This document shows, one piece after another, positions 11,699-47,383 of a stretch of DNA of 64,000 nt. Within the stretch, counting starts at the first letter, position 1. Each line of letters opens with the position of its first letter. A program made the translations under genes and the position numbers. Below the pieces are notes generated by a model. That model was not told where the DNA came from. It saw only the letters and a list, made by a program, of their open reading frames with translations, and did no database searches. Source of the stretch: a virus; IMG/VR virus record IMGVR_UViG_3300045988_183322; one strand, given 5' to 3'.

Positions 11699-12564
11699 TA
11701 TACTATAGTTTTACTTCCTAAAAAATCTATTCCAAATAGTAAATAATCTGAATCAGAAATACTCGTGCTCAAACTATTTAATTTAGAATTCTTCAAAAAA
11801 TAGTCATTATTTTCATCAAATTTTTCTGATTGTATTCTCACTCCTAAAATTTCATTCCGCTGATTTAAATACTTTTCAATTAAATCTATATTTCCTCTAA
11901 ATGGGAAATCTGAAAGAGAAGAAGTATATCCAGATGCCGAAAATTGTTGATTTATTAGTGGAGATTCAAGAACAATCATTTTGTCTTTCCAATTTATCGG
12001 CCATCTTATAAGAACATTTTTCCTTTCAGAAAAATTCATAGTAAAAATTGCTTCATCATCAAATATATCTAAGTATGGGATTATCCTATCCATCTTAGGT
12101 ATTTCCTTCTCTTCTGTTTCCGAGTTTCTTTTAAGAATTGCCGTCCATTTCTCTGGGGCATAAACCTTTTTTCCCACGAATGATGCTGATAATAATGGAA
12201 TTTCTCCCGGGTTCAATGATAAAGAATACTCAGTCATTACTACATCAAAATTAGCCCCATTCACATTCATTAGTGTTTCGCCTTGGATTAAATCATCAAA
12301 AGATGCTTCTACTAATGCGGCGGTATGTTGACCTATGAAATAATCCAGCAATTTTTCATTGAATGTTAATGGTTTTTCTATAGAAAAGCTTATAGTTGGC
12401 GCCCCATTTGGAATAGTTTGTGATAATCCTCCTAATAAAGCACCTGTTGAATTAGAAAAGTCATTAGTCATCGATATGACATTAACATCTTTCCAAAAAT
12501 CGGAAATTTCCCCATTTTCTTCCCCAATGCAAAATATTATATTATTGATATTTAACGCATTCAT
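11698..12564 (-). CDS. distal tail protein (Dit-like position)
   Basis: Immediately downstream of the tape measure with start/stop overlap; size 288 aa. Confidence 0.4.
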   Translation of the reverse strand: MNALNINNIIFCIGEENGEISDFWKDVNVISMTNDFSNSTGALLGGLSQTIPNGAPTISFSIEKPLTFNEKLLDYFIGQHTAALVEASFDDLIQGETLMNVNGANFDVVMTEYSLSLNPGEIPLLSASFVGKKVYAPEKWTAILKRNSETEEKEIPKMDRIIPYLDIFDDEAIFTMNFSERKNVLIRWPINWKDKMIVLESPLINQQFSASGYTSSLSDFPFRGNIDLIEKYLNQRNEILGVRIQSEKFDENNDYFLKNSKLNSLSTSISDSDYLLFGIDFLGSKTIV

Positions 12565-15500: not shown

Positions 15501-18500
15501 TGGTAGTATATTTTGGACAGAAATCTTAGCTTGTCTATTGTTTAACTGTTCTTGAATGGCTTTTGACGTTTGCTCAGCGGCACTTAATTGAATATTAGCC
15601 GCTTTATATTGCATATCAGCACTTCTAAGTTCTTGTATAGCTAAAGCTAATCTTTGTCTATTCTCTTGTAGGGAAGCTTCTTCTTCCGCTTTTGCTATTT
15701 TCCCAATTAGAGCACTCACCTCTTGAATGTCTGAGAATCCCCCTTCGGAACGCCTAATTCCATTAACAATATTCATGAGTTCATCTCTATCTTGAGAAGA
15801 ACTGAGATTAGATATCCTTTGAACTACTTCTTTCTCAACTTCGGCAAAATATCTTTGCTGTTCCAACATTATTTTTCTCATATTAGATTCATAATCTAAT
15901 TGAGATTTTTGGGCTTCAATTCCAGTACTTAATGATGGGCTAATAGTTTTTCTTGCAGAAAGAATTGTTTGCTGTATTGTATTATTATAATCAATATTTT
16001 TAATTCTTGCTGTGAACTCATTAATTTGAGTTTCTAAATTATTTAATGCTTCTTTGAATCTTGTACTAGAAAAATATTTGTCGAATTCACCTAAAGCTGT
16101 TGAAGCCTTATTTATAGAATCTTTTAATTCTTTTGATGCAGTTTCTAAATCTTTATTTTCAATCGTCCTAAAAAAATCTTTGGCTTTTTGTGCCGCTTCA
16201 TGATTTAAGTTTTGAAATTGCTTACCCCATTTTCCTATCTCAATGAATATATTTTGTATTTCATTAGCTGATGTAGCTTGGTTTATTTTTCTAAGAGTTT
16301 CATCAAGGTTATCTTTCGAAAATCCAGAGCCTAAACTTGTTAAATTTTCTTTCAAAAATTTTGCGGCTAATTCCCTTATGGAGAGGATATTAGAAGTCCT
16401 TTCTCTTAATATATTTCTTTGCTCTATAGAGCCTTGAGCTTGAATCTTCTCTGCCGCAGAACCATAAATATTTTTTCTTATTAGAGATGAATCTAATTCT
16501 GTTGGAATATTATTTAATATTGATGTCTTTTTTAATATATCTCCTATGTCAGATATAAAATTCTTAATCTTAGTTACTATACTAATTTGTATCTCTCTTA
16601 TTTTTTTGGCATCTTTATCTGATATCCCTAGTTTTTTTAATTCATCCTCTCCCATTATTGGAGCCTTTTTTAAAAATTCTACTAGGCTCCTATAAGCCCT
16701 ATCAGATGATAATGCGGCCTCATCTCTATATTTTTTAGTTTCTGTAAATGCTTCTATTAATTTATCAACTTCTGCGGCATAAATTATATCTGCTTCATTT
16801 GATATTTTTTTTAAATATTCAGGAATCTCTGCTATTCTTCCAGAAGTTCTTAATTTTGTTATTTCTTCTTGTACCTCTTGAGATTGAAGTTTTTGCGCTT
16901 TTCTCTGTTGAATATATATATCTGCCGCTAATTTTGCTGAACCAGCGTTATCTCTAAGAGATTCATAACTGATATTTCCTCGCGTACTATAAGTTGCCCC
17001 AGCCCCAGCATAAGGCCCAAGTTCTGCCGTTATTGCCGTTCCTTTATACACGTTCTCCCAATCGCCTTGCTCAACAGCCTTCGAAATACGGTTTTTTATA
17101 CTTTTATTTATTTCATTTTGAAGTTCTGGAGTTATTCGAACTCTAGACCATTGATTAGTTATCCGAACATTTTTCAATACTTCATCTAAAATAGCATTTG
17201 TTAATGATTTAGGTGTCCCCACAGAAGATTTTAGAACTTCTTCTATTGATTTATTGATAAGTTCGTCCCCTGTTTTTACCTCTTCATATGCCTTTTTATC
17301 TTTAGTAATATTAGAAACTCTATAATTTTCTATAGCTTTCTCAATATTCTTTGCAATATCTTGACCTGAAATTCCTTCTGTAGCTTTAGCTGATTGAATC
17401 GCTAATTCTTCCAAAGATTTCGCCGCTCTATCTGCGGGCGTTTCTAACAGTCCAAATGATTTTTTGAATCTATTTATAATAGAATCTTGCCATCTGTCTG
17501 GCATTAGTTGCCAAGCAGTTGCAACCCAACCTATAATTGGTAAGAATTTAGTAAATGCTCCAATAACCCCTTTCAGAACAGGCCCAAGAGTTTTGAAACT
17601 ATTAAGAATGAGGGAAATAGTTTTTGTGTCGCCAGCTCGCCAAGACGCCATATTAGACTTTCCTATTTCCCTCGCTTTACTAAATCCTCCAAGAAAACTT
17701 TTTGCTGATTCCAATGGAGCATTTATCACATCTTTTCCAGACATTCCAAACCCAAAAGCGGAAGAAGCCATTTTCATTGTGATAAAAGTAGAAAGCGCTT
17801 TCCCTAGTTTAGAAAAAACAATTGCTGTAGTACTAGCTCCTTCTGATACATCTAATAATGCTCCATTTAAGAAAGAAGCGGCTATAGACCATTTTATAAG
17901 TCCTGTCAAACTTTTTTCTCTTTCCACAGAATCTTTAGATATAGCTTTTGATAAGTTCTCTGTTGAACCAGCGGCCTTATCTGCTACTCCGCTCAGAGCA
18001 TTTATTTTATTTATAACACCTTTCGTTATATCTCTTGTTATAAATGCTTCTCCAATTGGATTAAACTTGCTACTTTCTCTAATACTTCCCTTCGCGAAAT
18101 TTTTAGAGTTAGTAAGTTCTTTTATTTGATTCCTATTTAATATTTTGTATTTCCCATTTCCAGCGTCAACAATAAGTTCGTCAGTATTAGCGACAACAGT
18201 TTGTTTTATTCCATCTAATGGAAAATTATTCATAATGACGGGAGAAGCATTTTTTCTAGCACCACCTATCCCCATTTGAATAGCTTTTTGTTCTTTAACA
18301 AAAGCATTATCTCCGCTTGCTCTATTTTTGACAAATTTTCCCTTTTGATATGCCCCGATATTAGCTTGAGAAACATTCAATGTTGTCATTGAAGTCATTG
18401 TCGCCGCAATTTCAGCGTATATTTTTGCTAAAGTTTGACTTTTGGCAACTTCTGCATCAAGAAGAGAAATTACTTTTTGAGCTTGAGCCGTTCTACTAAT

Positions 18501-20249
18501 AGTTTTGTCAGTTATAACTGCTTGAATATCAGCATTATTCTGATATAAATTATTTAAAAGCTGTTCATACTGAACTTGCCTTTGAGAGGCTTTGTTTAAA
18601 TTCATGAAAGAAACCCATGAATCCTTAGTTTGCATTGCCATATAGGAAATACCTTTCCCTATTGTTGCAATAGCTAAAACCAATCCTGGTCCAGTCAAAA
18701 TAGAACCGATTCCTTGAACCACATTTTCAAGAAATGCCAAAGAACCTTCTCCTTTAATACCATCTGTTATTTTTTCAAGTAAATTATTAACTGTAGATAA
18801 TCCACTCGTCAAATCATCTAGAAAAGCCGTGTTGCCAAAAGCAGAACCTAATTCAATGCCCGTTGTTTTAAGTTTTTGGATTTGCGCATCCAATGTTTGA
18901 TTTAATATTGCATTTTTTTGGTAAGCTTCATCTACAGCTTGATTAGCATTTAATAAATTTCTATCATAACGAGATACCCCTTTTTCTACTTCTTTATAAA
19001 GTTGTTGCAATTTACTTTTTTGCGCCTCATCAGAAGTATTTTTAATTTGAATAGAAATTTCTTTAAGGACATCAACTCCTTGTTTTAATCCATCTGGCCC
19101 ATTTAAAGAAAGCCCGAATGAATTTAAAGAGTTTTCGATTTCCTTTATTTTTTCTTCAGGAAGACTTTCTAAACTTCTTCCTAAATCATTCATCAAGGAG
19201 GTCAGTTTATCAATTTGATAAAGCCCCGACATTTCTTTTAAAAATTTAACTAATTCTGACCTATCTCCGAATACTTGAACGCCTCCTAAACCATTGATAG
19301 TTTTAGCCATATTTTTCAATATGTCCATTGTTTCAAGCAATTCCCCATTATCAGATTCTACTTTAATTCCAAACCCTTTTAAAGTTTGCAATTTTGAAGG
19401 GTCAATAATTCTAGTGAATATTGATTTAGCAGAGTTGCCTAAGACACCACCTTGAAGACCTGTCGTTTCTTGTAATGTTGCAATAAATGCGGCTAATTCT
19501 CGGAACGAAACCCCTGCTGAACGCGCGGCAGAAGCAGAGCGCGCCATACCTTGAATGATACCATCAGTAGAAGCCGCCGCCGCTAAGTCGATAGCAGAAA
19601 GTGCATTCAGAATTTCACTAGAAGATAAATCTTCGTTGGAAAATGCGTTGATGGTGGCAGTTAAACCATTAATAGCTTCATCAAGACTGATACCCGTAAG
19701 GCGCATCATAATCATGGTATCATTAGTTCTCTCAATGATTTGATTCATGGCTAGGCCTTGTCTAGAAAACTCTAATGCCGCTTTTGCCGCATCTTTAAAT
19801 GAAGTTGCTGTATTTCTTGCTACGTCGAAAAGCCGATTTCCATATTCTACAATTTCAGAATTAGATGCTTCCGAAATGACTTGAAGTTCTTTTAATGCTT
19901 TTTGAACATCAATAGTAGAATCTAATAAGCTTGAAAAAGCTCTTTCTACCGCGCCCACAGAAGCGACGGAAGCCCCGAAAGCAAGGACTCTAGCATTAGA
20001 TGCGGCTAAACTCTTATCGAAGTCATTGACGAGTCCATTTATTTTTCCTAGTGGTGCTTCATAATCTCTGAATGCTCGAGATGGCATGTTAGCTCTGATA
20101 AGTTTAGTCACATCAACTTGGCTTGCTAAGCTAGCTATTTCTCTCTCTACAGTTTTTACTGCCCTCCTAGCCTGTTGTTGTAAAGACTTAGAGTTCAGGC
20201 TAACATTTAATTCAGCATCAATTTTTACTTTGTTATTATTTCCTGCCAT
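12564..20249 (-). CDS. tail tape measure protein (2561 aa)
   Basis: Very long coiled-coil-rich protein with hydrophobic central segments and Gly-rich C-terminal region with duplicated GEYV(L/I)..DV..(I/V)G..(Y/F)LD.LN motif; sits between tail genes. Confidence 0.7.
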   Translation of the reverse strand: MAGNNNKVKIDAELNVSLNSKSLQQQARRAVKTVEREIASLASQVDVTKLIRANMPSRAFRDYEAPLGKINGLVNDFDKSLAASNARVLAFGASVASVGAVERAFSSLLDSTIDVQKALKELQVISEASNSEIVEYGNRLFDVARNTATSFKDAAKAALEFSRQGLAMNQIIERTNDTMIMMRLTGISLDEAINGLTATINAFSNEDLSSSEILNALSAIDLAAAASTDGIIQGMARSASAARSAGVSFRELAAFIATLQETTGLQGGVLGNSAKSIFTRIIDPSKLQTLKGFGIKVESDNGELLETMDILKNMAKTINGLGGVQVFGDRSELVKFLKEMSGLYQIDKLTSLMNDLGRSLESLPEEKIKEIENSLNSFGLSLNGPDGLKQGVDVLKEISIQIKNTSDEAQKSKLQQLYKEVEKGVSRYDRNLLNANQAVDEAYQKNAILNQTLDAQIQKLKTTGIELGSAFGNTAFLDDLTSGLSTVNNLLEKITDGIKGEGSLAFLENVVQGIGSILTGPGLVLAIATIGKGISYMAMQTKDSWVSFMNLNKASQRQVQYEQLLNNLYQNNADIQAVITDKTISRTAQAQKVISLLDAEVAKSQTLAKIYAEIAATMTSMTTLNVSQANIGAYQKGKFVKNRASGDNAFVKEQKAIQMGIGGARKNASPVIMNNFPLDGIKQTVVANTDELIVDAGNGKYKILNRNQIKELTNSKNFAKGSIRESSKFNPIGEAFITRDITKGVINKINALSGVADKAAGSTENLSKAISKDSVEREKSLTGLIKWSIAASFLNGALLDVSEGASTTAIVFSKLGKALSTFITMKMASSAFGFGMSGKDVINAPLESAKSFLGGFSKAREIGKSNMASWRAGDTKTISLILNSFKTLGPVLKGVIGAFTKFLPIIGWVATAWQLMPDRWQDSIINRFKKSFGLLETPADRAAKSLEELAIQSAKATEGISGQDIAKNIEKAIENYRVSNITKDKKAYEEVKTGDELINKSIEEVLKSSVGTPKSLTNAILDEVLKNVRITNQWSRVRITPELQNEINKSIKNRISKAVEQGDWENVYKGTAITAELGPYAGAGATYSTRGNISYESLRDNAGSAKLAADIYIQQRKAQKLQSQEVQEEITKLRTSGRIAEIPEYLKKISNEADIIYAAEVDKLIEAFTETKKYRDEAALSSDRAYRSLVEFLKKAPIMGEDELKKLGISDKDAKKIREIQISIVTKIKNFISDIGDILKKTSILNNIPTELDSSLIRKNIYGSAAEKIQAQGSIEQRNILRERTSNILSIRELAAKFLKENLTSLGSGFSKDNLDETLRKINQATSANEIQNIFIEIGKWGKQFQNLNHEAAQKAKDFFRTIENKDLETASKELKDSINKASTALGEFDKYFSSTRFKEALNNLETQINEFTARIKNIDYNNTIQQTILSARKTISPSLSTGIEAQKSQLDYESNMRKIMLEQQRYFAEVEKEVVQRISNLSSSQDRDELMNIVNGIRRSEGGFSDIQEVSALIGKIAKAEEEASLQENRQRLALAIQELRSADMQYKAANIQLSAAEQTSKAIQEQLNNRQAKISVQNILPSLLKNLPSVTNTLSGKRSFEGDNITKFSQSLLSELQKAFDKTLNIVTPNSIEENARRQQSFSMYGKTYDISTQKAQESIKKLQEQFTLLGNALNQRVNIQLTSFSAKIKQTSDAITKMRLNMEKEDVDLESDILLLPDEVKEVVRGFDLLNKANKELAIGQMEVAQANLEQRRSLLEATNRIEDVGKRAEIVQQFDSRKSNDELANIIGRALAEQEVLGLKSTDIFKSSVDDFGKFNEIFKTAINEFDKAVDKIVDKNPRELENIRGSSIQSLARERNSQTSYNGIGIVNAGGPTDIPSDDDLNPFEGYIEDVETTAVAMSDLTDATTKATEIVSKQKEKTEEQIDALGKANADLLKNNDATTKATEAQINYKKAVNEAQKFLERFTIIGNKAITAATAAEKYSYQRQVNINNEGPKNIKGYENMTYQQAMEEALKKGDAGKEDLLKIQEQFNKRLEFKTFNEGWSESLAQMSDDAKRLEENMGKMIGTIKDGFVDVFTDAITGAKSFEDAMTDMVTNVANQIIKHGLNSLISNMFSGVAGLGSGGQQSTPAIYSSQSGMGGGIFSWLTNLFAEGGQVVGGSGVRDDVPALLTGGEYVLKKDVVSRVGKDYLDMLNSGKVSKFATGGYVKGRNSERWYLDNGGYPTDTSKSNTGGNNGFYSPGKYGYGSIVGRNNLKSFATQSFTSGQYDVIKQNDTGGVIGLENESWRISAYGRNADTVENQTTEADKREAFNLADQEQKQADALEKERKKRKKSMWKSIIGMGAMIGLNYITGGIGGNSTWGLAGLFGGGNSSWGKGIQEFQGAFGNGPRGSDQVNILRGIFGMKKLEKQRASGGPITSGTAGRDTTPINAMNGEYVISRDVARNIGTPFLDALNNNRVSFANDGGSQTSGPVGMDFSKLIDKFDEMITVVKEAFETSTGNITINITDNSTGGTQESQQGETSEDNQRLAQRIKEVVRSTILEEKRVGGMLNTTKA

Positions 20250-32777: not shown

Positions 32778-35700
32778 TTAAATTAAAAATGGACTAAAAG
32801 TAGATGAAGTCTTTTCTTTCTTTCGATTCATCATATCAAAATATAGATGTATTCCCCAATTCCCCAAAACCAAAGTAGAATAAGAATCTTTTCGCGCTTT
32901 ATTTGGAGAACGGCTTTTCCGTAAATTTTCTGGTAAATCAAAAGTTTGCGTTCCTGATGCACTTTGCCTAGGATTTATCATTGTGCACTCTGTTTTAGTC
33001 ATTTCAATGACTTCCTTTTGGCGTTCAATAAAATCAACAATTGATGGAGATTCAATATTTCTTGAAAATTTTAAGTTTTTGAGTTCGGGTATTCTCATTT
33101 TACTCATTGTCCTGAAATCTTCATCTATTGCGGCGGCGGCAAAATAAATACCTTTATGGTCGAAAGCACTCTGCAACATTTCATTAGCCTGTCTAATCCA
33201 TTGAGTGCTTTGCTTTCTAAGATGACAGATTTTCTTTTCTTCTAAATTATATTCATTTCTCAATTTATATAATTCATCATTATATTTTGTTTGGTCTTCT
33301 GCGTCAAACTCTAAAAGGCCAATATCTATTTTTGCGTCTTTAAACTCTTGGCTTTGATTACAAGCTTTAATAAATTGTAAACCACCATTGTAGTCGCCAA
33401 CAACCATAACAACATTAAAATGTTCTAAAACATATTTGAAATATAGTATATGTTTATGTAGAGGCGTTCCCGGAATAGCATATGCATGGACTAAAACTCC
33501 TTTCTTTTCTTCTTCTAATAATCTAAACACTTGTATAGAAAAGTTATCAGAAGATTCTGATTCTGACCAAGACGGGTCGATAGATACTAAATATTTTGCT
33601 TTGGGGTCTCCTACAATTTCTACGCAATATCCATCTCCTTCTTCAAAAGTACATTGAATCATTTTGGACATTTTAAAATATCCAGCAGAATCATCCGTAA
33701 ATACGGAACCAAACTCTCTAGCAAATTGAGCTTCTGACATGGTTTCTTGAGATTCTTTAATCAATTTCTCGTCATAAATACCAGTAGGAATTATTTTGTA
33801 TGAAGTATGGAATATCGCCCTAGTAGCATCATCTCCGTCTTCATATTTCTGTTTTTCGGCCATTATCAATTTTTCATATTCACAATAGACTTTATATATA
33901 TATTCAAACTTAAATCCTGCTGATGATAACAAAATAATTTTGTTAGAAGAGAACTTTGTCCTTTCTTCTTCTTTCATTTTTCCCGTAGCAACTAACTCGT
34001 CTTCTAATGCTTTGATAGACGCAATTTTTGTTGGGTCTGCATTCGCCGCCAAGAAAGGTTTAATGACTTCATTGTAAATTCTTTCAGGCATTAATAAGAA
34101 TTCGTCAATAATAACTACATTGAATCGGAAGCCTCTCAATTTTTGACCATCTCCCAATGGAATAGCCATAATAGAGCTTTTACCAATATCAATGCTCCAT
34201 TGGTCGGTTCCTTTGTTTACCCCTTTTGTATTTACCGCTTGATGGAATAAAGTAGCTTCTTTTGTGAGCATTATATCTTCAAGCTTTTTAATAATTGTTT
34301 TCGATTGTCTAAAGGATGCGGAAATGATACCTATTTTAACGCCTTGTTCGAAAATCGCATATAGTGCGGCAAAAATAGCCGTGGAGAAAGAATTATGATT
34401 GATGATACCATCGGAAACATAACAATGTTCATCAGCTACTTGAATATCCACTGTTATATCTTCACTCTCAAACGTTTCTTTCACTTCTTCGAAGAAAAAA
34501 TCTTCTCTTGCCAATTGGGAAATTTTTTCAAAATCTTCTGTATCAACAAAGCTCCATTTCTTAGACTGCTCTAACAAATTTCTCAAGCCTCTTTGTGGAT
34601 GGAATTTTCTAAATGTCAGTTTATAATGCTCTGAATGCCCAAATGCAAACTTACTGAAAGCTGATTTTTTATATTTCTTTTTAAGATAAGGCCCAACATA
34701 AGGGACGTAATCACAAAAATAATCTTTGCGCTCTCTAGTAACAAATTTATTTAATCGTTCTATTTTTCTTTGGGTAGCAAATCCAATTTGTTCATTAAAC
34801 TTTATCACATCGGAATAACCAGTGATAGAAATAGTTTTTGCTGGTAAACAATCATAAACTTTATCATTTCCAAACTTAGATTTTCCTCCTTTGAATGAAA
34901 TATAAGTTCGCGATTTAATCCCGAACATTAGCAATAAATTTTTGACAAGCTCTATCAGTTCTTCTGATGTAGAAGTAAAACCTATTGTTCCATTAAACCG
35001 CTTTTCTGTACCCCTATTCCTACTTCCTAAAGAGCAATATCCATCTGTATCATACAAGCCCCTTATAAAGGCCGTCAGACATTCTTTTGAGGCATTGGTC
35101 AAAGGGAGAGGAAGAGACTTCTCATTCGCTTTAACAATTCTAAAACCAATCTTTTCTAAAAATTGAACAAATATTTTACTTGTCGCTCTTATCTCATAAG
35201 TATTGTTTCCTTTATCAATTTTATTATAATGGAGACTTAATTTGTTGAAAAACTCTTCGAGAAAAACAATAATTTCTGGCTCTTGATTTGTTATCGAAAC
35301 CAAGTTTTCGCTCATGCACCCATCTCCAAGAAGTAATCCAAAGAAATAATACCAATCCTCTAAGGAAGCATTTTTAGGATAGAACTGTTTCGCATTAAAA
35401 TGAATGTCTTTTTCATTTTCGTCTCTAAAATCCCATCCAATAGAAGGAAACTCATATCCTCCTTTCTTCATCACCAAAACTTCCCCAACCTTAATGTCTT
35501 TGACAAATTTCCACTCTGCTTCAAGAGTTTCTGGATTCAGTATTTGAACTCGGTGATAATCTAATCCCTCGCATTCATATCCACCTTTAGTTCTAACGCC
35601 ATAAGTTTTTTCTTTTGGATTAACAACTTTATCCTCGACTAAATTATATCCATTTTTAGAAAGAATCTTATCGCCAACTTCAATATCAATAATTCGTTTT

Positions 35701-35990
35701 AATCCTTTATCTGATTGCACTAAACCATTATGTTTAAGACATTTAGAACTTGCTCGACTAAGAATTCCCATGAAATAATCAGTATTAAACATCCCCTTAA
35801 TCAACATATGTTGAAATGGAAAAAGTTTAACTCCTAAAAGAATATTTGAGGCAAAAGTAGGGTCATTTCTTAAAAACTCTGTTAAAGTTACTTTAGCTGT
35901 TTTATCATCTAAAAAACCTTCGAGTTTTTTTGCTTCTTCTAAAGTATTAACAATAGGTGTCCTTTTTTGATTTCCTTCAATCCAACTCAT
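32778..35990 (-). CDS. terL: terminase large subunit, interrupted by an intein
   Basis: Exteins carry the ATPase P-loop GILSRASSK|[intein]|SFS, Walker B VVIIDEF and the C-terminal nuclease region. Without the intein the protein is about 620 aa. Confidence 0.8.
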   Translation of the reverse strand: MSWIEGNQKRTPIVNTLEEAKKLEGFLDDKTAKVTLTEFLRNDPTFASNILLGVKLFPFQHMLIKGMFNTDYFMGILSRASSKCLKHNGLVQSDKGLKRIIDIEVGDKILSKNGYNLVEDKVVNPKEKTYGVRTKGGYECEGLDYHRVQILNPETLEAEWKFVKDIKVGEVLVMKKGGYEFPSIGWDFRDENEKDIHFNAKQFYPKNASLEDWYYFFGLLLGDGCMSENLVSITNQEPEIIVFLEEFFNKLSLHYNKIDKGNNTYEIRATSKIFVQFLEKIGFRIVKANEKSLPLPLTNASKECLTAFIRGLYDTDGYCSLGSRNRGTEKRFNGTIGFTSTSEELIELVKNLLLMFGIKSRTYISFKGGKSKFGNDKVYDCLPAKTISITGYSDVIKFNEQIGFATQRKIERLNKFVTRERKDYFCDYVPYVGPYLKKKYKKSAFSKFAFGHSEHYKLTFRKFHPQRGLRNLLEQSKKWSFVDTEDFEKISQLAREDFFFEEVKETFESEDITVDIQVADEHCYVSDGIINHNSFSTAIFAALYAIFEQGVKIGIISASFRQSKTIIKKLEDIMLTKEATLFHQAVNTKGVNKGTDQWSIDIGKSSIMAIPLGDGQKLRGFRFNVVIIDEFLLMPERIYNEVIKPFLAANADPTKIASIKALEDELVATGKMKEEERTKFSSNKIILLSSAGFKFEYIYKVYCEYEKLIMAEKQKYEDGDDATRAIFHTSYKIIPTGIYDEKLIKESQETMSEAQFAREFGSVFTDDSAGYFKMSKMIQCTFEEGDGYCVEIVGDPKAKYLVSIDPSWSESESSDNFSIQVFRLLEEEKKGVLVHAYAIPGTPLHKHILYFKYVLEHFNVVMVVGDYNGGLQFIKACNQSQEFKDAKIDIGLLEFDAEDQTKYNDELYKLRNEYNLEEKKICHLRKQSTQWIRQANEMLQSAFDHKGIYFAAAAIDEDFRTMSKMRIPELKNLKFSRNIESPSIVDFIERQKEVIEMTKTECTMINPRQSASGTQTFDLPENLRKSRSPNKARKDSYSTLVLGNWGIHLYFDMMNRKKEKTSSTFSPFLI
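34392..35741 (-). other. intein (450 aa) with LAGLIDADG homing-endonuclease domain inside the terL P-loop
   Basis: Starts with Cys (CLKHNG...) right after Walker-A Lys; LAGLIDADG blocks LLGDGC and LYDTDGY; ends VSDGIINHN followed by extein Ser+1. Confidence 0.75.
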
Positions 35991-36921
35991 GAATAAAATT
36001 ATTGTCTATAAAGTATTGTAAATCTACATTCCATAATTTATCCCCTAATTTCAATATTTTGGGAATTAGAGTTCTACTATTCTTTCTACCACCAGAGAAA
36101 ACGAATTGACAACAATCTGAAAACTCATGTTGTAGAGTTCTCATATTATGAAAAATATAATTTAAATTAGAGGTATGTTTTCCAAAATGGTTATTTTGCT
36201 CAAGAACATCAAACTTAGTTTCGACTAATATATATAGAAAACAACCTAATGTTCTACAACGCTCTAATTCTTTTCTAAATCTATTATATCCAGAAGATAA
36301 AGTTCCTTTAAAATCTGATTCAGATTTTCTATCTATGAATGTATTTGTAAAGTTTTCTCTCGGTAAAGTATAATCTCCGATATCTAACTTGCAAACCTCC
36401 TCATTTTTGAATGAGAGGGGTTTTTGTTCCCTAGTATCAATGAGTATTTTTTCGCTGGAATAATCATTGTTTATTTCTTCTGTCATTTTCTTTGACAATA
36501 GCATGGGAACATTTATCAGTTTGCAAACTTTCCCATACGAACCAAACATCTTAATGTAAGTTTCTAATTTTGGCAATTTTAACGATTTTATTTCTAACGA
36601 TGTTGGGGCAAAAGTTAGTTTTTTATTTTTTATTCTTCTCTTTAACATTTCTAAAGCTATATTTTTAGCTTCTTCTGAATCCCAATATTTCTCAAAATAT
36701 TGTTCCATATGGAAATCCGAATAAAAGAAGGAAGAGAAGTATTCTTCATAATTTTTATATGGAATATTCAATCCGCAAAAAGGGCATTTTCTAGGAAAAT
36801 ACTTTTCATAATAATCTTTTAAAAAAATTTTATGCCCTTTTATATGAGAATGAAGAGACTTTTGCGAAGTAAAAAAATCTCCGCATATTTCGCATTTTAT
36901 ATTCTCATTATTAAATGACAT
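35977..36921 (-). CDS. C2H2 zinc-finger plus ERCC4-type (XPF/Mus81/Hef-like) nuclease domain protein
   Basis: N-terminal CEICGDFFTSQKSLHSHIKGH. C-terminal IDTRE...DIGDYTL...IDRKSESDF matches the ERCC4 nuclease signature (V.D.RE...GDY...ERK...D). Immediately upstream of terL. Confidence 0.5.
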   Translation of the reverse strand: MSFNNENIKCEICGDFFTSQKSLHSHIKGHKIFLKDYYEKYFPRKCPFCGLNIPYKNYEEYFSSFFYSDFHMEQYFEKYWDSEEAKNIALEMLKRRIKNKKLTFAPTSLEIKSLKLPKLETYIKMFGSYGKVCKLINVPMLLSKKMTEEINNDYSSEKILIDTREQKPLSFKNEEVCKLDIGDYTLPRENFTNTFIDRKSESDFKGTLSSGYNRFRKELERCRTLGCFLYILVETKFDVLEQNNHFGKHTSNLNYIFHNMRTLQHEFSDCCQFVFSGGRKNSRTLIPKILKLGDKLWNVDLQYFIDNNFIHELD

Positions 36922-40512: not shown

Positions 40513-41175
40513 ATGGCTTATAATATCTTTATCCAAAAACAAAAAAACAAATATTGTGTAGTTTTTCCTAAATGTGGATGGACTTTATTCCATACTCATT
40601 GCAGGGGGCAAGCAAATTTTATATATGTCAATAGCAATCAATTTCCTGCGCAAAAGGTGCACATAGACGCTTTTTTTATCAGACATCCAGTAGATAGAAT
40701 TATTTCAGGATTTAAAAATAAGTATTTAGATAATCCAGATAAAGATATATGGACAAGAGACTGGCTAATAAAAATAATGAATTTACAGACGAAAGAGCAA
40801 ATTAAGAATATATCATTCGACCAATTTTTAGATAGATTACAAGAATTAGTTTTTTTTGGTCAAAATGATTTCAAGACTGTTTTTTTTAGAAGTAATGCTC
40901 CTGATAATTATTGGGACACCCATTTCTGTCCATTATCTTACCAATTAAGATTCTTTCCACAAAAAGAAATGAACTTTTTTGATATTAGAAAAGATTTAGA
41001 TTATCTAGATTATTTAGGAATAAATTACTCTATTAAACATAATTCGTCTTCTCATATTGCTTTTGAAGCAACACCTGAACAAAAAAAAAGAATAGAAGAA
41101 ATTTACAAAGATGATATGATATTATATAAAAAATATGAAAAAGATAGAGCTAATCGGCAAATAATAAGCTCATAA
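40513..41175 (+). CDS. sulfotransferase (PAPS-dependent)
   Basis: 5'-PSB-like VVFPKCGWTLF (PKSGTTW) and 3'-PB-like RHPVDRIISGF (RNPKDVAVSYY) motifs. Confidence 0.6.
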   Translation: MAYNIFIQKQKNKYCVVFPKCGWTLFHTHCRGQANFIYVNSNQFPAQKVHIDAFFIRHPVDRIISGFKNKYLDNPDKDIWTRDWLIKIMNLQTKEQIKNISFDQFLDRLQELVFFGQNDFKTVFFRSNAPDNYWDTHFCPLSYQLRFFPQKEMNFFDIRKDLDYLDYLGINYSIKHNSSSHIAFEATPEQKKRIEEIYKDDMILYKKYEKDRANRQIISS

Positions 41176-41194
41176 AATTTAAGAATCCATAACA

Positions 41195-42007
41195 ATGAAA
41201 GATATAGAAAAAATAGCTTTTGATGTGATAACAGAAGCTTATAGAAAAGCTTCTAATTTAACCCTGCTATGTTCTTTTGGGAAAGATAGCCAAGTATTAC
41301 TTCATATGTTGGAAATGCATGATTTTCTTAAGAGAACGAAAATATTGTACATAGATTCAACCTTTGAATTCAAGGAGCTTTATGAACATAAAGATTTCTT
41401 ATTGAAAAAATATGATATTTCCTATAGGAATTTTATCGTAGCAAAAAATAAAGAATCTATTGCTGATGGATTAAATTATGATAATACTTCTATTTTTGAG
41501 CTGACAGAAAAATTAAAAACGATACCTCTCAATCAATCAATCAATCAACATAATATTGACTTTCTCATTACTGGAATAAGAAGAGATGAAGAAGGTTCTC
41601 GAGCTAAAGAAAGATATTTTAGCGTTCGTGACGAAAATGGAAGATATAATCCTATTGACAATAAGCCGGAGTTTTTCCCAATCTTAGGCAAAAACTTATA
41701 TCCTCTCAAAAATGGCGGTCATTATAGAGTTAATCCTCTTCTTGACTGGACGGAATATGATATATGGGAATATATTAACGAATATGGATTGAAGGTGTGC
41801 CCTTTGTATTTTTCGGAGAATGGTAAAAGGTATCGGTCTTTAGGAGATGCCCCTGTGACAACTCCTATAGAATCTAATGCTTGCACCCCAGAAGAAATTA
41901 TATTAGAATTGGCGGCAACAAAAACGCCAGAAAGAGCGAGTAGAGCACCCCAAGACAATGCTACTCCTTATTGTATGGAAAAATTAAGACAAAATGGATT
42001 TTGTTAA
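41195..42007 (+). CDS. cysD: sulfate adenylyltransferase subunit 2 (CysD/NodP-like, PAPS reductase fold)
   Basis: PP-loop LCSFGKDSQVLLHM and GIRRDEEGSRAKERYFSVRDENGRYNP...W matching the CysD core RRDEE.SRAKER.FSFRD. Confidence 0.8.
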   Translation: MKDIEKIAFDVITEAYRKASNLTLLCSFGKDSQVLLHMLEMHDFLKRTKILYIDSTFEFKELYEHKDFLLKKYDISYRNFIVAKNKESIADGLNYDNTSIFELTEKLKTIPLNQSINQHNIDFLITGIRRDEEGSRAKERYFSVRDENGRYNPIDNKPEFFPILGKNLYPLKNGGHYRVNPLLDWTEYDIWEYINEYGLKVCPLYFSENGKRYRSLGDAPVTTPIESNACTPEEIILELAATKTPERASRAPQDNATPYCMEKLRQNGFC

Positions 42008-42711
42008 TGAGAAAGAAAATTTATATAGTAGTTTGCGGATTAGTCGATAGCGGAAAATCTTCTTTCATTAGAAAGGCGACGGAGTTTATTGCTGGTAGAG
42101 AATTGAATCCTGATGCACTCTGTGTCGAACAAGAAACTGGAAAAACGATAGTTAATACAAAGGTATCTTGCCCTCTTAATAACAAAGAAGAAATAGTATT
42201 TATTGATTGCCCCGGGCATTTGGAATATTATCCAGAAATAATTTCCGCCTTTTGCATGGCTGATGCGGCTATTCTCATTAAAGATGGAAAGAGATTGGAA
42301 GAATCAGAAGATTATCTGGAAGAAATTAGGTTAGATTTATTGAAGCTTAATATCCCTATCATTGGAGAATATACTTCTCACTCTTTATTCCATGATAGAT
42401 ATTCTTATGAAATTGAAGAAGAAATTACCTTTTCAAAAGTTTGCAATGATTTTCTCAAAAAAATAGATATATTTACAAATGATTTTAATGTGGTATTTTT
42501 TGAAGATAATTGGGGAATAAATAAAAAGGTATGTTTGTACTCTGAGACTGGAATAATTATCTCCGATATAGCTTGGGGTGATTGGGAAGATATCAAATAT
42601 GCAGTTCAAGAGTTTGATATTTCATCTGAAAAAAATGTATCTCGAAGAATATTAGTTTGCGATGCAGAAGATAAATCTAAAATATTGGGACTTATAATTA
42701 TTCGACGATGA
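42007..42711 (+). CDS. CysN/EF-Tu-like GTPase, G-domain only (truncated sulfate adenylyltransferase subunit 1 homolog)
   Basis: G1 VVCGLVDSGKSS, G3 DCPGH; only about 235 aa (no domains II/III); TAATG overlap with cysD stop. The ORF-track start 41971 is upstream. Confidence 0.55.
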   Translation: MRKKIYIVVCGLVDSGKSSFIRKATEFIAGRELNPDALCVEQETGKTIVNTKVSCPLNNKEEIVFIDCPGHLEYYPEIISAFCMADAAILIKDGKRLEESEDYLEEIRLDLLKLNIPIIGEYTSHSLFHDRYSYEIEEEITFSKVCNDFLKKIDIFTNDFNVVFFEDNWGINKKVCLYSETGIIISDIAWGDWEDIKYAVQEFDISSEKNVSRRILVCDAEDKSKILGLIIIRR

Positions 42712-43172
42712 TTCTACTTTTAACTGGGAAAAGCGGTGCTGGTAAAACTACTATAGCGAAAGGGATGGCTTGTATTTATCAGAATGTTGTGCTTTTAGAT
42801 GGGGACGAACTAAGAGAGGGCTTAAATTCTGACCTTGGATTTTCTGATGAAGACATAATGGAAAATATGAGAAGAGTTTCTTCTTTAGCGAAACTTCTTT
42901 CAGAACAAAAATATTTTGTTGTTGTCTCTATGATTGCGCCCCTTTTAGAGGGAAGGAAAATGTTTAAGGGGGAAGACTCTTGGGAAATCCTTATTCAACA
43001 ATCAAAATGCGAAGAAAGGGACGTGAAAGGGCTTTATAAGAAAGGAACCCAATTTAGAGAATATGAAATGGGCGGTGCAGACTACGTTCTCAATGTGGAT
43101 GAAAAATTTGTTCGAGATTGTATTTGGGAAATAGAAGTAAATACTTTTGGTAGTGAAAAATCTGACTGGTAA
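42708..43172 (+). CDS. cysC: adenylylsulfate (APS) kinase
   Basis: LLLTGKSGAGKTTIA P-loop and LDGDELREGLNSDLGFSDEDIMENMRRV, characteristic of CysC. Confidence 0.8.
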   Translation: MILLLTGKSGAGKTTIAKGMACIYQNVVLLDGDELREGLNSDLGFSDEDIMENMRRVSSLAKLLSEQKYFVVVSMIAPLLEGRKMFKGEDSWEILIQQSKCEERDVKGLYKKGTQFREYEMGGADYVLNVDEKFVRDCIWEIEVNTFGSEKSDW

Positions 43173-46264: not shown

Positions 46265-47383
46265 TTATTTCTTTTCCAATAAAAACAAGTATTCAGCTAT
46301 CTTGGCGGCTCTATTTCGAAGATTGCGGCAAGCACGGAATGTATTATATACTGTTTCGAATGAGGTAACTTTACCTATTTTGGAGAGGAAGTTGATAAAG
46401 TCGTTGTATTTCACAAATCCCTCTGAATTATAAGATATTAGGATGAACTTTGCGGGGCAGGCTTGGACGGTTGAAAACAATTCATTCTGAGCTGATTGGC
46501 GTTTATTATAGAGAGAACGGTTCCAGTCGTCAGGGATTCCAGAAACTCGGGAAAATGACAGTGGTTTTTTATTATTTGCTATTAAATTGAGCATGAAATA
46601 ATTTGAGCCATAGGGGTGTTGGTTATAAGGAGGGTCCATGTAAGCCAAATCTATTTCTTGAATACTTTTCACAGCTCTTGCCGCATCCATTTGTGTTACT
46701 TTGTATTCGCATTCAAAATTAGAAAATACGGGTAATTCGAGGCAAATATCCTTCATTATTCTAGTTAGTGCATTTTTCCCATGTCCCCCAAACTGCCCAA
46801 TCCCTTCGTGATTTTTATAGAACCCCTTGAAAACACCTGATGTATTGTTGTGCACAGAGGCTTCATACAACAGTGGAGCTAAAAAATATTTTTTAAGTTT
46901 TTGTGGTAATGTTTCAATAATACTTCTGGCCGTGTCAATATACATTGCATTTCTTCTTGTATAAAAAACACGGTCGTATTTATTTATATCATTTTCATCT
47001 TTAGGTGCGTATAAATCAGTAATAAATCCCTCCTTCCACTCTTTTTTAATTCTCTGTTTCACATCGATAAGAGTGCTTTCTAATAAATTCCAGTCAATAG
47101 TACTACGATTAGACAAGTAACATTTGTTAATTAAATATGAATAGTCCTCTAAATCATTTGCATAAATTGTCTGCGAATGCTGTTTCAGAAAACGCGCTAC
47201 AATTCCCGAACCGGAGAAAACATCAAAAAACGTCAATTTACTTTTGCCTAACCTTTTCTTTACTTCGTCTACAGCGTTTCCAATAAATGGCAATAGAGAC
47301 CTCTTATTCCCTATATAAGTAATAATTTGTTTCGTTAAATATTCCTCGTTTTCCATAGAATTTAGGTGCGGACAAGTTGCCAT
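46265..47383 (-). CDS. DNA N6-adenine methyltransferase (Dam-like, D12 class)
   Basis: YIGNKRSLLPFI, FDVFSGSGIV (AdoMet motif I) and AYMDPPY (DPPY catalytic motif). Confidence 0.75.
   Translation of the reverse strand: MATCPHLNSMENEEYLTKQIITYIGNKRSLLPFIGNAVDEVKKRLGKSKLTFFDVFSGSGIVARFLKQHSQTIYANDLEDYSYLINKCYLSNRSTIDWNLLESTLIDVKQRIKKEWKEGFITDLYAPKDENDINKYDRVFYTRRNAMYIDTARSIIETLPQKLKKYFLAPLLYEASVHNNTSGVFKGFYKNHEGIGQFGGHGKNALTRIMKDICLELPVFSNFECEYKVTQMDAARAVKSIQEIDLAYMDPPYNQHPYGSNYFMLNLIANNKKPLSFSRVSGIPDDWNRSLYNKRQSAQNELFSTVQACPAKFILISYNSEGFVKYNDFINFLSKIGKVTSFETVYNTFRACRNLRNRAAKIAEYLFLLEKK

What the first reader, a model, noticed from the sequence alone, without database searches (positions are those of the whole stretch)
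34392..35741. 450-aa LAGLIDADG intein splitting the terminase large subunit P-loop
The intein begins with Cys1 immediately after the Walker-A lysine (GILSRASSK|C) and ends ...VSDGIINHN|S, with DOD endonuclease blocks LLGDGC and LYDTDGY. P-loop insertion is a recurrent intein hotspot in terminases, and splicing is required for packaging. The intact homing endonuclease suggests it is still mobile.
Basis: partly seen in the sequence, partly recalled or inferred. Interest (0 to 1): 0.55.

Follow-up and report, generated by a model that had tools for sequence, protein, structure and literature searches.

The report
Homing intein in phage terminase P-loop
The DNA-packaging enzyme gene of this uncultured phage is interrupted, in the middle of its ATP-binding loop, by a typical self-splicing protein element (intein) carrying a homing endonuclease; this is a well-known kind of selfish element at its classic insertion site, so the finding is right but ordinary.

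Summary
Window 34392..35741 (minus strand) encodes a 450-aa in-frame insertion in a 1070-aa ORF (32778..35990). It starts with Cys straight after the Walker-A lysine (GILSRASSK|C) and ends ...GIINHN|S.

It is a class-1 intein with a two-motif LAGLIDADG endonuclease. Supporting evidence:
- Pfam LAGLIDADG_3, E 8e-22.
- The AlphaFold model's best PDB matches are full-length inteins: TliVMA, PI-PfuI and PI-SceI.
- Hundreds of 616-629-aa homologues lack the insertion and read SRGxSK|S/T straight through.
- The spliced product models as a large terminase (best match T4 gp17).

The splicing and endonuclease residues are intact and invariant in the phage population. The one exception is the block-B Thr, which is Leu here (LxxH); the His is kept.

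The intein evolves under purifying selection (dN/dS about 0.13-0.2). All sampled close relatives (72-100% extein identity) carry it, and no empty site was found. One relative has lost both endonuclease motifs. Current mobility is therefore plausible but not shown.

Insertion between the P-loop Lys and Ser/Thr is the classic intein site already described for phage terminases. This is a new member of a known kind. The wider terminase family is an intein hot spot, with at least five sites and up to three inteins per protein.

The parts
32778..35990 (-). Gene for the terminase large subunit precursor (1070 aa, intein included)
   Evidence: Single ORF. The identical protein is encoded on 17 contigs read from several samples. 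Its 90% cluster has 63 members, and all 15 listed are 1070 aa.
35742..35990 (-). N-extein (TerL residues 1-83), ending in the Walker-A segment GILSRASSK
   Evidence: Translation. It aligns with the N-termini of intein-less homologues up to SRGxSK. In the model of the spliced product, strand 72-76, loop 77-82 and a helix starting at K83 give P-loop geometry.
34392..35741 (-). Intein, 450 aa (Cys1 to Asn450)
   Evidence: AlphaFold model pLDDT 83.3, pTM 0.85. Foldseek top hits are TliVMA intein 7qss (E 1.5e-21), PI-PfuI 1dq3 (4.9e-19) and PI-SceI 1vde (4e-14).
35442..35741 (-). N-terminal lobe of the HINT splicing domain (intein residues 1-100). It includes block A (Cys1, 35703..35741) and block B (GLDYHRV, 35547..35567, His63)
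   Evidence: Beta-rich segment in the model. Sequence match to the gp41-1 intein, residues 7-58. H63 is invariant in A2. Coordinates checked by translation.
34782..35381 (-). LAGLIDADG homing endonuclease core (intein residues 121-320). Motif 1 is LLLGDGC (35316..35336, Asp140) and motif 2 is LYDTDGY (35037..35057, Asp233)
   Evidence: Pfam LAGLIDADG_3, two stretches. Alignment to I-Tsp061I 2dch pairs both motifs. Foldseek hits to I-DmoI and I-Tsp061I. dN/dS is 0.13 against P0002 and 0.20 against P0003.
34506..34781 (-). Helical region between the endonuclease core and the C-terminal splicing lobe (intein residues 321-412); partly low-confidence in the model
   Evidence: Helices 324-336, 349-365, 382-396 and 401-410, with pLDDT below 50 at 337-344 and 363-379. 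One of the two tracts that differ between the population haplotypes lies here (intein nt 1125-1201).
34392..34451 (-). Blocks F and G of the splicing domain: VDIQVADEHCYVSDGIINHN (Asp432, His439, His449, Asn450)
   Evidence: Translation. HMMER alignment to the gp41-1 C-terminal segment ...IDIEVSGNHLFYANDILTHN. TIGR01443 intein_Cterm scores 13.5 bits, just under its 15.6-bit cut-off.
32778..34391 (-). C-extein (TerL residues 534-1070 plus stop). It begins with Ser534, which is both the +1 splicing nucleophile and the Walker-A Ser/Thr (34389..34391)
   Evidence: Pfam Terminase_6N. Intein-less homologues continue ...SK|S/T-F-x-T. Foldseek hits to terminase ATPase and nuclease domains.

Best explanation
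The insertion is a canonical class-1 intein with an embedded two-motif LAGLIDADG homing endonuclease. It sits in the large terminase (TerL) gene of an uncultured, low-GC phage of roughly 140 kb.

The gene is translated as a 1070-aa precursor whose Walker-A loop is split (SRASSK | intein | SFST), so the precursor cannot be an ATPase. After translation the intein should excise itself by the standard four steps:
1. Cys1 makes a thioester at Lys83-Cys1, helped by block-B His63 and block-F Asp432.
2. The +1 Ser534 attacks the thioester to form the branched intermediate.
3. Asn450 cyclises, helped by His449 and His439.
4. An O-to-N shift gives a 620-aa TerL with an intact P-loop (SRASSKSFST), plus a free 450-aa intein.

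The freed intein is expected to act as a site-specific endonuclease on intein-less terL alleles during co-infection, so that repair copies the intein in (homing).

Shown here: the anatomy, the fold, the catalytic residues, the intein-less homologues, purifying selection, and fixation in the sampled clade.

Inferred, not shown: actual splicing, endonuclease activity and present-day mobility.
For: Anatomy and coordinates:
- Exact coordinates and junction residues.
- LAGLIDADG_3 E 8e-22 and Intein_splicing E 1e-6.
- Matches to the intein parts of several NCBIfam models.

Fold:
- The model (pLDDT 83, pTM 0.85) has full-length endonuclease-bearing inteins as its best PDB matches: 7qss E 1.5e-21 with TM 0.63/0.65, then 1dq3 and 1vde.

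Exteins:
- The in-silico spliced 620-aa product finds hundreds of 616-629-aa homologues at 51-61% identity and 100% coverage. They are contiguous across the junction (SRGxSK-S/T-F-x-T).
- The closest of these (P0006) lies in a syntenic locus.
- Removing the intein raises Terminase_6N from 24.9 to 33 bits, and the match then spans the junction.
- The spliced model has P-loop geometry at the junction, and its top 41 PDB matches are all large terminases or phage packaging ATPases, with T4 gp17 best at E 3e-15.

Constraint:
- dN/dS is 0.12-0.17 for the intein and 0.035-0.04 for the extein.
- dN/dS for the endonuclease core is 0.13-0.20.
- C1, H63, D140, D233, D432, H439, H449, N450, K-1 and S+1 are invariant among the 14 population variants.

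Precedent:
- The Lys|Thr P-loop site is the 'classic' intein site, and mycobacteriophage TerL inteins splice and cut intein-less alleles (PMC5050341).
Against: - Block-B Thr is Leu (LDYH) in this clade. The Thr normally helps strain the scissile bond (PMC10663303), so splicing efficiency cannot be assumed.
- Pfam Intein_splicing and TIGR01443 both fall just below their curated cut-offs.
- No experiment was done; splicing and cleavage are inferred.
- No intein-less allele closer than 61% protein identity exists in 5.8 billion proteins, and the empty-site junction was not found. Homing therefore has no visible target in the sampled population.
- The P0004 lineage has lost both LAGLIDADG motifs, which shows the endonuclease is dispensable once the intein is fixed.
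Confidence: 0.9

Rival explanations
1. A fixed, no-longer-mobile intein. It still splices, because it must for the phage to package DNA. Its endonuclease no longer homes, either because it is already inactive or because no empty target sites remain, and the element persists only by vertical inheritance on its way to becoming a mini-intein.
For: - All five 90%-identity clusters with 72-100% extein identity carry the intein at the same site, and none is empty.
- All 15 listed members of the window's own cluster are 1070 aa.
- The empty-site junction has 0 hits, while the occupied junction has 4.
- P0004 has degenerate motifs (GMVLLCG, GIWSLCG) and a shortened 415-aa intein.
- Mini-inteins exist at other sites in the family, for example the 137-aa site-b intein of P0123.
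Against: - The endonuclease core is under purifying selection (dN/dS 0.13 against P0002 at unsaturated dS 0.68).
- Both catalytic Asp residues are invariant in the population.
- Between distant TerLs, intein identity equals extein identity (44/46, 44/45, 41/39), although the intein evolves 2-3 times faster within the close clade. This fits past horizontal moves.
- Site-a inteins also occur sporadically in clades that are mostly intein-less, such as P0121.
Confidence: 0.35
2. A regulatory intein. Splicing is conditional, for example on redox state, temperature or nucleotide or DNA status, and it times the appearance of active terminase during infection. The intein would then be retained for the phage's benefit rather than as a pure parasite.
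For: - The position in the catalytic P-loop means packaging activity depends entirely on splicing.
- Biased retention of inteins in ATPase motifs has been read as a hint of regulation (PMC5050341).
- The non-canonical block B (Leu for Thr) could slow step 1.
Against: - Nothing in the sequence is specific to a sensor.
- Most family members (hundreds at 51-61% identity) do without any intein.
- The distribution and the endonuclease decay in P0004 fit the ordinary homing cycle.
Confidence: 0.05
3. Not an intein. Instead it is a native inserted domain of this terminase, an assembly or frameshift artefact that fuses a free-standing homing endonuclease gene, or an intron-encoded endonuclease.
For: Two curated intein models fall slightly under their thresholds. 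The block-B Thr is missing.
Against: - The reading frame is continuous and identical on 17 contigs read from independent samples.
- HINT lobes flank the endonuclease on both sides, with Cys1, His63, Asp432, His439 and His-Asn|Ser in place.
- The exteins rejoin into a contiguous conserved motif exactly at the boundaries.
- The model superposes on whole inteins, not only on free endonucleases.
Confidence: 0.02

Closest known systems
Mycobacteriophage TerL1-a inteins (Kelley et al. 2016, mBio, PMC5050341)
   Same: - A class-1 intein inserted between the invariant Walker-A Lys and the following Ser/Thr of a phage large terminase; that paper calls this the 'classic' P-loop insertion.
- The +1 nucleophile is the Walker-A hydroxyl residue.
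- TerL inteins in that study spliced efficiently, and two cut intein-less alleles.
   Different: - The host protein is a different terminase family: Terminase_6N-like here against Terminase_1. In that survey Terminase_6 proteins carried inteins only at the C-motif site f.
- The host phage is an uncultured, 33% GC, roughly 140-kb phage, not an actinophage.
- No close sequence relationship between the inteins was detected here.
- Block B is LxxH.
Archaeal and yeast full-length LAGLIDADG inteins with solved structures: TliVMA (7qss), PI-PfuI (1dq3), PI-SceI (1vde)
   Same: The overall two-domain architecture matches: a HINT splicing domain interrupted by a monomeric double-motif LAGLIDADG endonuclease. 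Foldseek E values run from 1e-21 to 1e-14, with TM about 0.5-0.65 over the whole chain.
   Different: - Sequence identity is only 12-18%.
- The host proteins differ (V-ATPase, ribonucleotide reductase).
- This intein has an extra, partly disordered helical region at residues 321-412.
gp41-1 intein (cyanophage-like, metagenomic; PDB 6qaz and 6riz)
   Same: It is the best sequence-level PDB match for the splicing domain. Residues 7-58 align to 10-61, and the C-terminal ...IDIEVSGNHLFYANDILTHN aligns to ...VDIQVADEHCYVSDGIINHN.
   Different: gp41-1 is a small intein without an endonuclease, in a helicase rather than a terminase. That it is naturally split is from my own recall, not tested here.
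Site-a inteins in the same TerL superfamily from metagenomes (for example P0123, P0127, P0128, P0130, P0135)
   Same: The insertion point is the same (HMM position 83|84...SK|C ... HN|S/T), the size is the same (about 430-455 aa), and intein identity is 34-46%.
   Different: These are unannotated metagenomic proteins. Several carry additional inteins at other sites; P0123 and P0125 have three, and P0124 has two that are only six residues apart.

Membership tests
Class-1 intein (HINT splicing domain) | Nucleophile (Cys/Ser/Thr) at intein position 1 | tested here: met
   Cys1 directly follows Lys83. It is invariant in A2 and in the 14 population variants.
Class-1 intein (HINT splicing domain) | Block-B histidine (the most conserved intein residue) | tested here: met
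   His63 lies in GLDYHRV and is invariant in A2. Its role is described in PMC10663303.
Class-1 intein (HINT splicing domain) | Block-B threonine of TxxH (commonly conserved helper residue, not an obligatory one) | tested here: not met
   Position 60 is Leu. Other site-a inteins of this family have Leu, Lys, Val or Ile there, whereas the site-c inteins have canonical GTLNH or GTFNH. This is a deviation, not a disqualifier: the review describes the Thr as assisting step 1 and singles out the His as the most conserved residue.
Class-1 intein (HINT splicing domain) | Block-F Asp and His; block-G penultimate His and terminal Asn | tested here: met
   Asp432, His439, His449 and Asn450 lie in VDIQVADEHCYVSDGIINHN. 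The segment aligns with gp41-1 blocks F and G. All four are invariant in the population.
Class-1 intein (HINT splicing domain) | Nucleophile (Ser/Thr/Cys) at extein position +1 | tested here: met
   Ser534. Intein-less homologues have Ser or Thr at the same Walker-A position.
Class-1 intein (HINT splicing domain) | HINT fold formed by the N- and C-terminal segments | tested here: met
   Beta-rich residues 1-100 and 413-450 in a confident model. The model has whole-chain Foldseek matches to solved inteins.
Class-1 intein (HINT splicing domain) | In-frame insertion absent from homologues, with exteins that rejoin into a contiguous conserved sequence | tested here: met
   Hundreds of intein-less homologues at 100% coverage, the alignment, synteny and the gain in Pfam score after in-silico splicing.
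Class-1 intein (HINT splicing domain) | Autocatalytic protein splicing | not testable with these tools
   This needs expression of the precursor or of a reporter fusion.
LAGLIDADG homing endonuclease (monomeric, double-motif) | Two LAGLIDADG motifs, each with the metal-binding acidic residue | tested here: met
   LLLGD140G and LYDTD233G. Pfam LAGLIDADG_3 matches in two stretches, E 8e-22. Both motifs pair with those of I-Tsp061I.
LAGLIDADG homing endonuclease (monomeric, double-motif) | Pseudo-dimeric alpha-beta-beta-alpha-beta-beta-alpha fold | tested here: met
   Secondary-structure order in the model, residues 127-320. Foldseek hits to I-DmoI and I-Tsp061I, TM about 0.65-0.69 on the target.
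LAGLIDADG homing endonuclease (monomeric, double-motif) | Site-specific cleavage of the intein-less allele | not testable with these tools
   This needs an in vitro cleavage assay. The candidate substrate is the fused junction, and the nearest natural empty allele (P0006) shares 42 of 60 nt with it.
Phage large terminase (TerL, Terminase_6N / T4 gp17-like) | N-terminal ASCE ATPase domain with Walker A and Walker B | tested here: met
   Terminase_6N scores 33 bits against a 22-bit cut-off on the spliced protein. SRASSK-S and the IIDEF motif are conserved. Foldseek matches T4 gp17 and the P74-26 ATPase domain.
Phage large terminase (TerL, Terminase_6N / T4 gp17-like) | C-terminal RNase-H-like nuclease domain | tested here: met
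   Foldseek hits to the G20c and RB49 gp17 nuclease domains, TM 0.52-0.69 on the target. There is no Pfam hit for this domain.
Phage large terminase (TerL, Terminase_6N / T4 gp17-like) | Position in a head-morphogenesis module next to the portal gene | tested here: inconclusive
   The neighbouring 675-, 513-, 206- and 369-aa ORFs have no PHROG hit, and the 675- and 369-aa ORFs also have no Pfam hit. Gene order is conserved in relatives. A tape-measure gene and a tail-collar gene lie further along.

The most novel reading that the evidence does not exclude
The intein may not be a mere passenger. With its non-canonical block B (Leu for Thr) in the catalytic P-loop, it could act as a conditional switch that delays terminase activation.

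Separately, this marine-type TerL family could be an unusually rich natural 'intein nursery'. It has at least five insertion sites in the ATPase domain and up to three inteins per protein. Two sites only six residues apart can be occupied at once, and tracts within the endonuclease are being exchanged between co-circulating haplotypes. Such a family could make intein site-switching and the homing cycle directly traceable in metagenomes.
Probability: 0.1. Interest if true: 0.55.

Novelty: new member of a known kind. Interest (0 to 1): 0.25.

Why it matters
For annotation: this gene is labelled only 'hypothetical protein' by the sources that name it. It should read 'terminase large subunit, intein-containing', and the mature protein is 620 aa.

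For biology it adds one more case, in an uncultured low-GC phage lineage and in a Terminase_6N-like protein, of the classic P-loop Lys|Ser/Thr intein site. It comes with a small natural series illustrating stages of the homing cycle:
- intact endonuclease (window, P0002, P0003, P0005);
- decayed endonuclease (P0004);
- mini-inteins and empty alleles elsewhere in the family.

It does not change any concept. Practically, an intein with a Lys at -1 and a Ser at +1 could interest protein engineers only if it proves fast.

Tried and rejected
- Nucleotide search of 10 kb around the gene against 50,697 GenBank phage records found no match, so the phage has no cultured close relative there.
- A word-indexed protein search with the intein alone returned only two hits and missed the identical precursor P0001. 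This is a limitation of the index, not biology; the exhaustive HMMER search found 3080 relatives.
- A profile of the spliced TerL against PDB sequences found nothing at E<=0.01. Terminase identity therefore had to be settled by Pfam, tblastn hits to annotated terminases and fold search.
- PHROGs gave no names for the presumed portal and capsid neighbours.
- A search for a second intein in the window, using phmmer with four different family inteins against all six-frame ORFs, found none. The window has no tRNAs.
- I tested whether the alternative population haplotype of the intein was donated by the P0002 lineage. It was not: 23 sites agree with P0002 and 37 do not.
- I considered whether the high intein divergence between haplotypes proves recent homing, and rejected this as proof. 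Patchy divergence of similar kind occurs elsewhere in the 23-kb region, and both partners already carry the intein.
- The empty-site junction search returned nothing, but the positive control shows that few copies of this phage are in those collections (4 hits). That negative is weak on its own.
Full report
**Observation.** The window carries one long ORF on the minus strand, 32778..35990, 1070 aa. Residues 84-533 of its product correspond exactly to 34392..35741 (1350 nt, 450 aa). The segment begins GILSRASSK|CLKHNG and ends SDGIINHN|SFSTA. GC content of the insertion (32.6%) is the same as that of the exteins (32.8%) and the window (33.4%), so composition gives no sign of recent arrival.

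**Is it an intein?**
- Pfam gives LAGLIDADG_3 at E 8.3e-22 in two stretches. It gives Intein_splicing at E 1.2e-6, which at 28.8 bits is below the 35.8-bit gathering score.
- NCBIfam matches are all to the intein portions of intein-containing RpoA'', DnaB, GyrA, RNR, IF-2, RFC and VMA models. TIGR01443 (intein C-terminal region) scores 13.5 bits against a 15.6-bit cut-off.
- Against PDB sequences the N-terminal lobe aligns with the gp41-1 intein. The C-terminal ...VDIQVADEHCYVSDGIINHN aligns with gp41-1 ...IDIEVSGNHLFYANDILTHN. The middle aligns with I-Tsp061I and PI-SceI, with both LAGLIDADG motifs in register.
- An AlphaFold model built on a nine-sequence alignment is confident (pLDDT 83.3, pTM 0.85). 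Its best Foldseek matches in the PDB are whole endonuclease-bearing inteins: TliVMA 7qss (E 1.5e-21, TM 0.63/0.65), PI-PfuI 1dq3 (4.9e-19) and PI-SceI (1e-14 and weaker). Free LAGLIDADG enzymes (I-Tsp061I, I-DmoI) follow for the core.
- The catalytic set is complete: Cys1, block-B His63, block-F Asp432 and His439, His449-Asn450, and +1 Ser. The endonuclease residues Asp140 and Asp233 are also present.
- The only departure is block B, which reads LDYH rather than TxxH. The same Leu, or another non-Thr residue, is found throughout the site-a inteins of this family, whereas site-c inteins of the same proteins have GTLNH. A recent review describes the Thr as assisting the first acyl shift and the His as the most conserved intein residue (PMC10663303). 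I treat this as a minor variant, not a refutation.

**Is the host protein a large terminase, and is the P-loop really split?**
- Joining residues 1-83 to 534-1070 gives a 620-aa protein. It finds 1666 relatives at E<=1e-5. The best 120 are listed, and almost all are 616-629 aa, 51-61% identical and 100% covered.
- In the alignment they read ...YFLGIW-SRGxSK-S/T-F-x-T... without interruption, exactly where the window has SRASSK|intein|SFST.
- The nearest empty allele (P0006, 61% identity) lies in a locus with the same gene order as the window.
- In-silico splicing raises the Pfam Terminase_6N score from 24.9 to 33 bits (cut-off 22). The match then runs across the junction, residues 77-325.
- tblastn against GenBank phages aligns residues 30-320 of the spliced protein in a single piece to annotated terminases of Bacillus and Clostridioides phages, E down to 6e-26.
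- A sequence profile found nothing in the PDB. However, the AlphaFold model of the spliced protein (pLDDT 74) shows strand 72-76, loop 77-82 and a helix starting at Lys83, which is P-loop geometry.
- Its top 41 Foldseek matches are all large terminases or phage packaging ATPases. T4 gp17 3cpe is best (E 3e-15), followed by PhiV-1, D6E, Sf6 gp2 and P74-26, with separate hits to the G20c and RB49 nuclease domains.
- The insertion therefore sits between the Walker-A Lys and the Walker-A Ser, and that Ser doubles as the +1 splicing nucleophile.

**How it most likely works.** The precursor cannot bind ATP productively, because 450 residues separate the Lys from the Ser at the start of the P-loop helix. 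Standard class-1 splicing would restore SRASSKSFST and release a 620-aa TerL plus the free intein:
1. N-S shift at Cys1.
2. Trans-esterification to Ser534.
3. Asn450 cyclisation.
4. O-N shift.

The freed intein's LAGLIDADG domain should then cut intein-less terL alleles in co-infecting relatives and be copied in by repair. The anatomy is shown; the chemistry and the cutting are inferred from family knowledge. There is precedent in phage TerL inteins that splice and cleave (PMC5050341).

**Evolutionary state.** Five 90%-identity clusters with 72-100% extein identity all carry the intein at the same site.

| Relative | Intein identity to window | Extein identity to window |
|---|---|---|
| P0002 | 84% | 94% |
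| P0003 | 67% | 86% |
| P0005 | 51% | 72% |
| P0004 | 34% | 82% |

- P0004 has lost both LAGLIDADG motifs (GMVLLCG, GIWSLCG) and is shortened to 415 aa, but it keeps the splicing blocks. This is the expected decay of the endonuclease after fixation.
- In the window lineage, dN/dS is 0.17 and 0.115 for the intein against 0.035-0.04 for the extein. For the endonuclease core alone it is 0.13 (against P0002, dS 0.68) and 0.20 (against P0003). The endonuclease is therefore still constrained, though about four times less than TerL.
- Within the window's own 90% cluster (63 members, the 15 listed all 1070 aa, called only 'hypothetical protein') there are two intein haplotypes. They differ at 19-22 intein residues but at 0-2 extein residues, and every catalytic residue is invariant.
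- At the DNA level the differences fall in two tracts, intein nt 606-813 and 1125-1201. The C-extein has no mismatch in 1.6 kb.
- Similar patches occur elsewhere in the 23-kb comparison. I therefore read this as ordinary mosaic recombination that includes the endonuclease region, not as proof of homing.
- No empty allele closer than 61% identity was found among 5.8 billion proteins. The predicted empty junction has no exact match in IMG/VR or JGI metagenome contigs, while the occupied junction has four.
- At larger distances intein identity equals extein identity (44/46, 44/45, 41/39, 34/33), even though the intein evolves faster within the clade. Site-a inteins also turn up in clades that are mostly empty, such as P0121. 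Both points fit past horizontal spread.
- Net: the intein is fixed in this clade, its endonuclease is probably still functional, and present-day mobility is unproven.

**Comparison with what is known.** Kelley et al. 2016 found TerL to be the commonest intein host in mycobacteriophages, with seven sites, all in the ATPase domain. [quoted passage not shown] A 2025 survey counts 293 TerL inteins in actinophages. The window's element works like these and sits at the same position of the motif. It differs in terminase family (Terminase_6N-like, for which that study saw only a C-motif site), in phage lineage, and in its LxxH block B. It is a new member of a known kind.

**The wider family.** Mapping HMM break points in the fetched homologues shows recurrent insertion points:
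- 77|78, before SRG (site a').
- 83|84, the site used in the window (site a).
- 112|113, SFRQ|S (site b).
- 162|163 and 164|165, PLG|DG|xKLRG (site c).
- About 182-186, next to the Walker-B IIDEF (site d).

P0123 and P0125 carry three inteins. P0124 has two inteins separated by only the six residues SRGSSK. This is a nice resource but again parallels the actinophage picture.

Noticed in passing
window 40513..43172 (+): A four-gene cassette: Sulfotransfer_2 (220 aa), a PAPS_reduct/CysD-like protein (270 aa, E 2e-36), an EF-Tu-type GTPase resembling CysN (246 aa) and an APS kinase (154 aa, E 1e-27). The phage thus seems to encode its own PAPS synthesis plus a sulfotransferase, which suggests sulfation of some phage or host molecule. 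The cassette is conserved in all contigs of this phage.
   Followed up: partly
proteins P0123, P0124, P0125 (metagenomic relatives of the window TerL; no locus fetched): Relatives of this terminase carry several inteins. P0123 (1635 aa) and P0125 (1931 aa) have three. P0124 (1524 aa) has two inteins separated by only the six P-loop residues SRGSSK. At least five insertion sites recur in the ATPase domain across the family.
   Followed up: partly
window 34392..35741 compared with L012 10250..11599: Two co-circulating haplotypes of the intein differ by 65 nt (19-22 aa), concentrated at intein nt 606-813 and 1125-1201. The C-extein is identical over 1.6 kb. The donor of the divergent tracts is not the P0002 lineage.
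   Followed up: yes
L009 3001..6096 (protein P0004): A relative with 82% extein identity has a 415-aa intein at the same site. Both of its LAGLIDADG motifs are degenerate (GMVLLCG, GIWSLCG) while the splicing blocks are intact, which makes it an example of endonuclease decay after fixation.
   Followed up: partly
window 35977..36921 (-): The gene just upstream of terL, overlapping its start by 14 nt, encodes a 314-aa protein. It has an N-terminal C2H2-like zinc finger and a C-terminal ERCC4-type nuclease domain (PHROG 3490, E 2e-11; Pfam ERCC4 just under its cut-off). It sits where a small terminase subunit would usually be expected.
   Followed up: no
L001 384..1301 and L013 40..966: Some contigs of the same phage carry an IS1595-family DDE transposase gene a few kb beyond the PAPS cassette. 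Other contigs (L002, L003, L012) have small ORFs there instead, so this is an insertion-sequence polymorphism within the phage population.
   Followed up: no
L014 and L016 (IMGVR_UViG_3300045988_183135, 173,439 bp); also contig k141_3705 (272,390 bp; locus L003): The terL-intein junction occurs twice on one 173-kb IMG/VR contig. Most contigs of this phage end at about 137-144 kb. The longer contigs are therefore probably concatemeric or repeat-containing assemblies of a roughly 140-kb genome.
   Followed up: no
window 12564..20249 (-), 46265..47383 (-), 2926..3861 (-): Other recognisable genes: a 2561-aa protein with a PhageMin_Tail domain (probable tape measure), a D12-class N6-adenine DNA methyltransferase, and a KilA-N domain protein. 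Most structural ORFs near terL have no PHROG or Pfam match, which underlines how far this phage is from cultured ones.
   Followed up: no
tool behaviour: The word-indexed protein search with the intein alone returned only two hits. It missed the identical precursor P0001 and its close relatives, which the exhaustive HMMER search and the extein query found easily. A negative from that tool on a sub-sequence query should not be trusted.
   Followed up: yes
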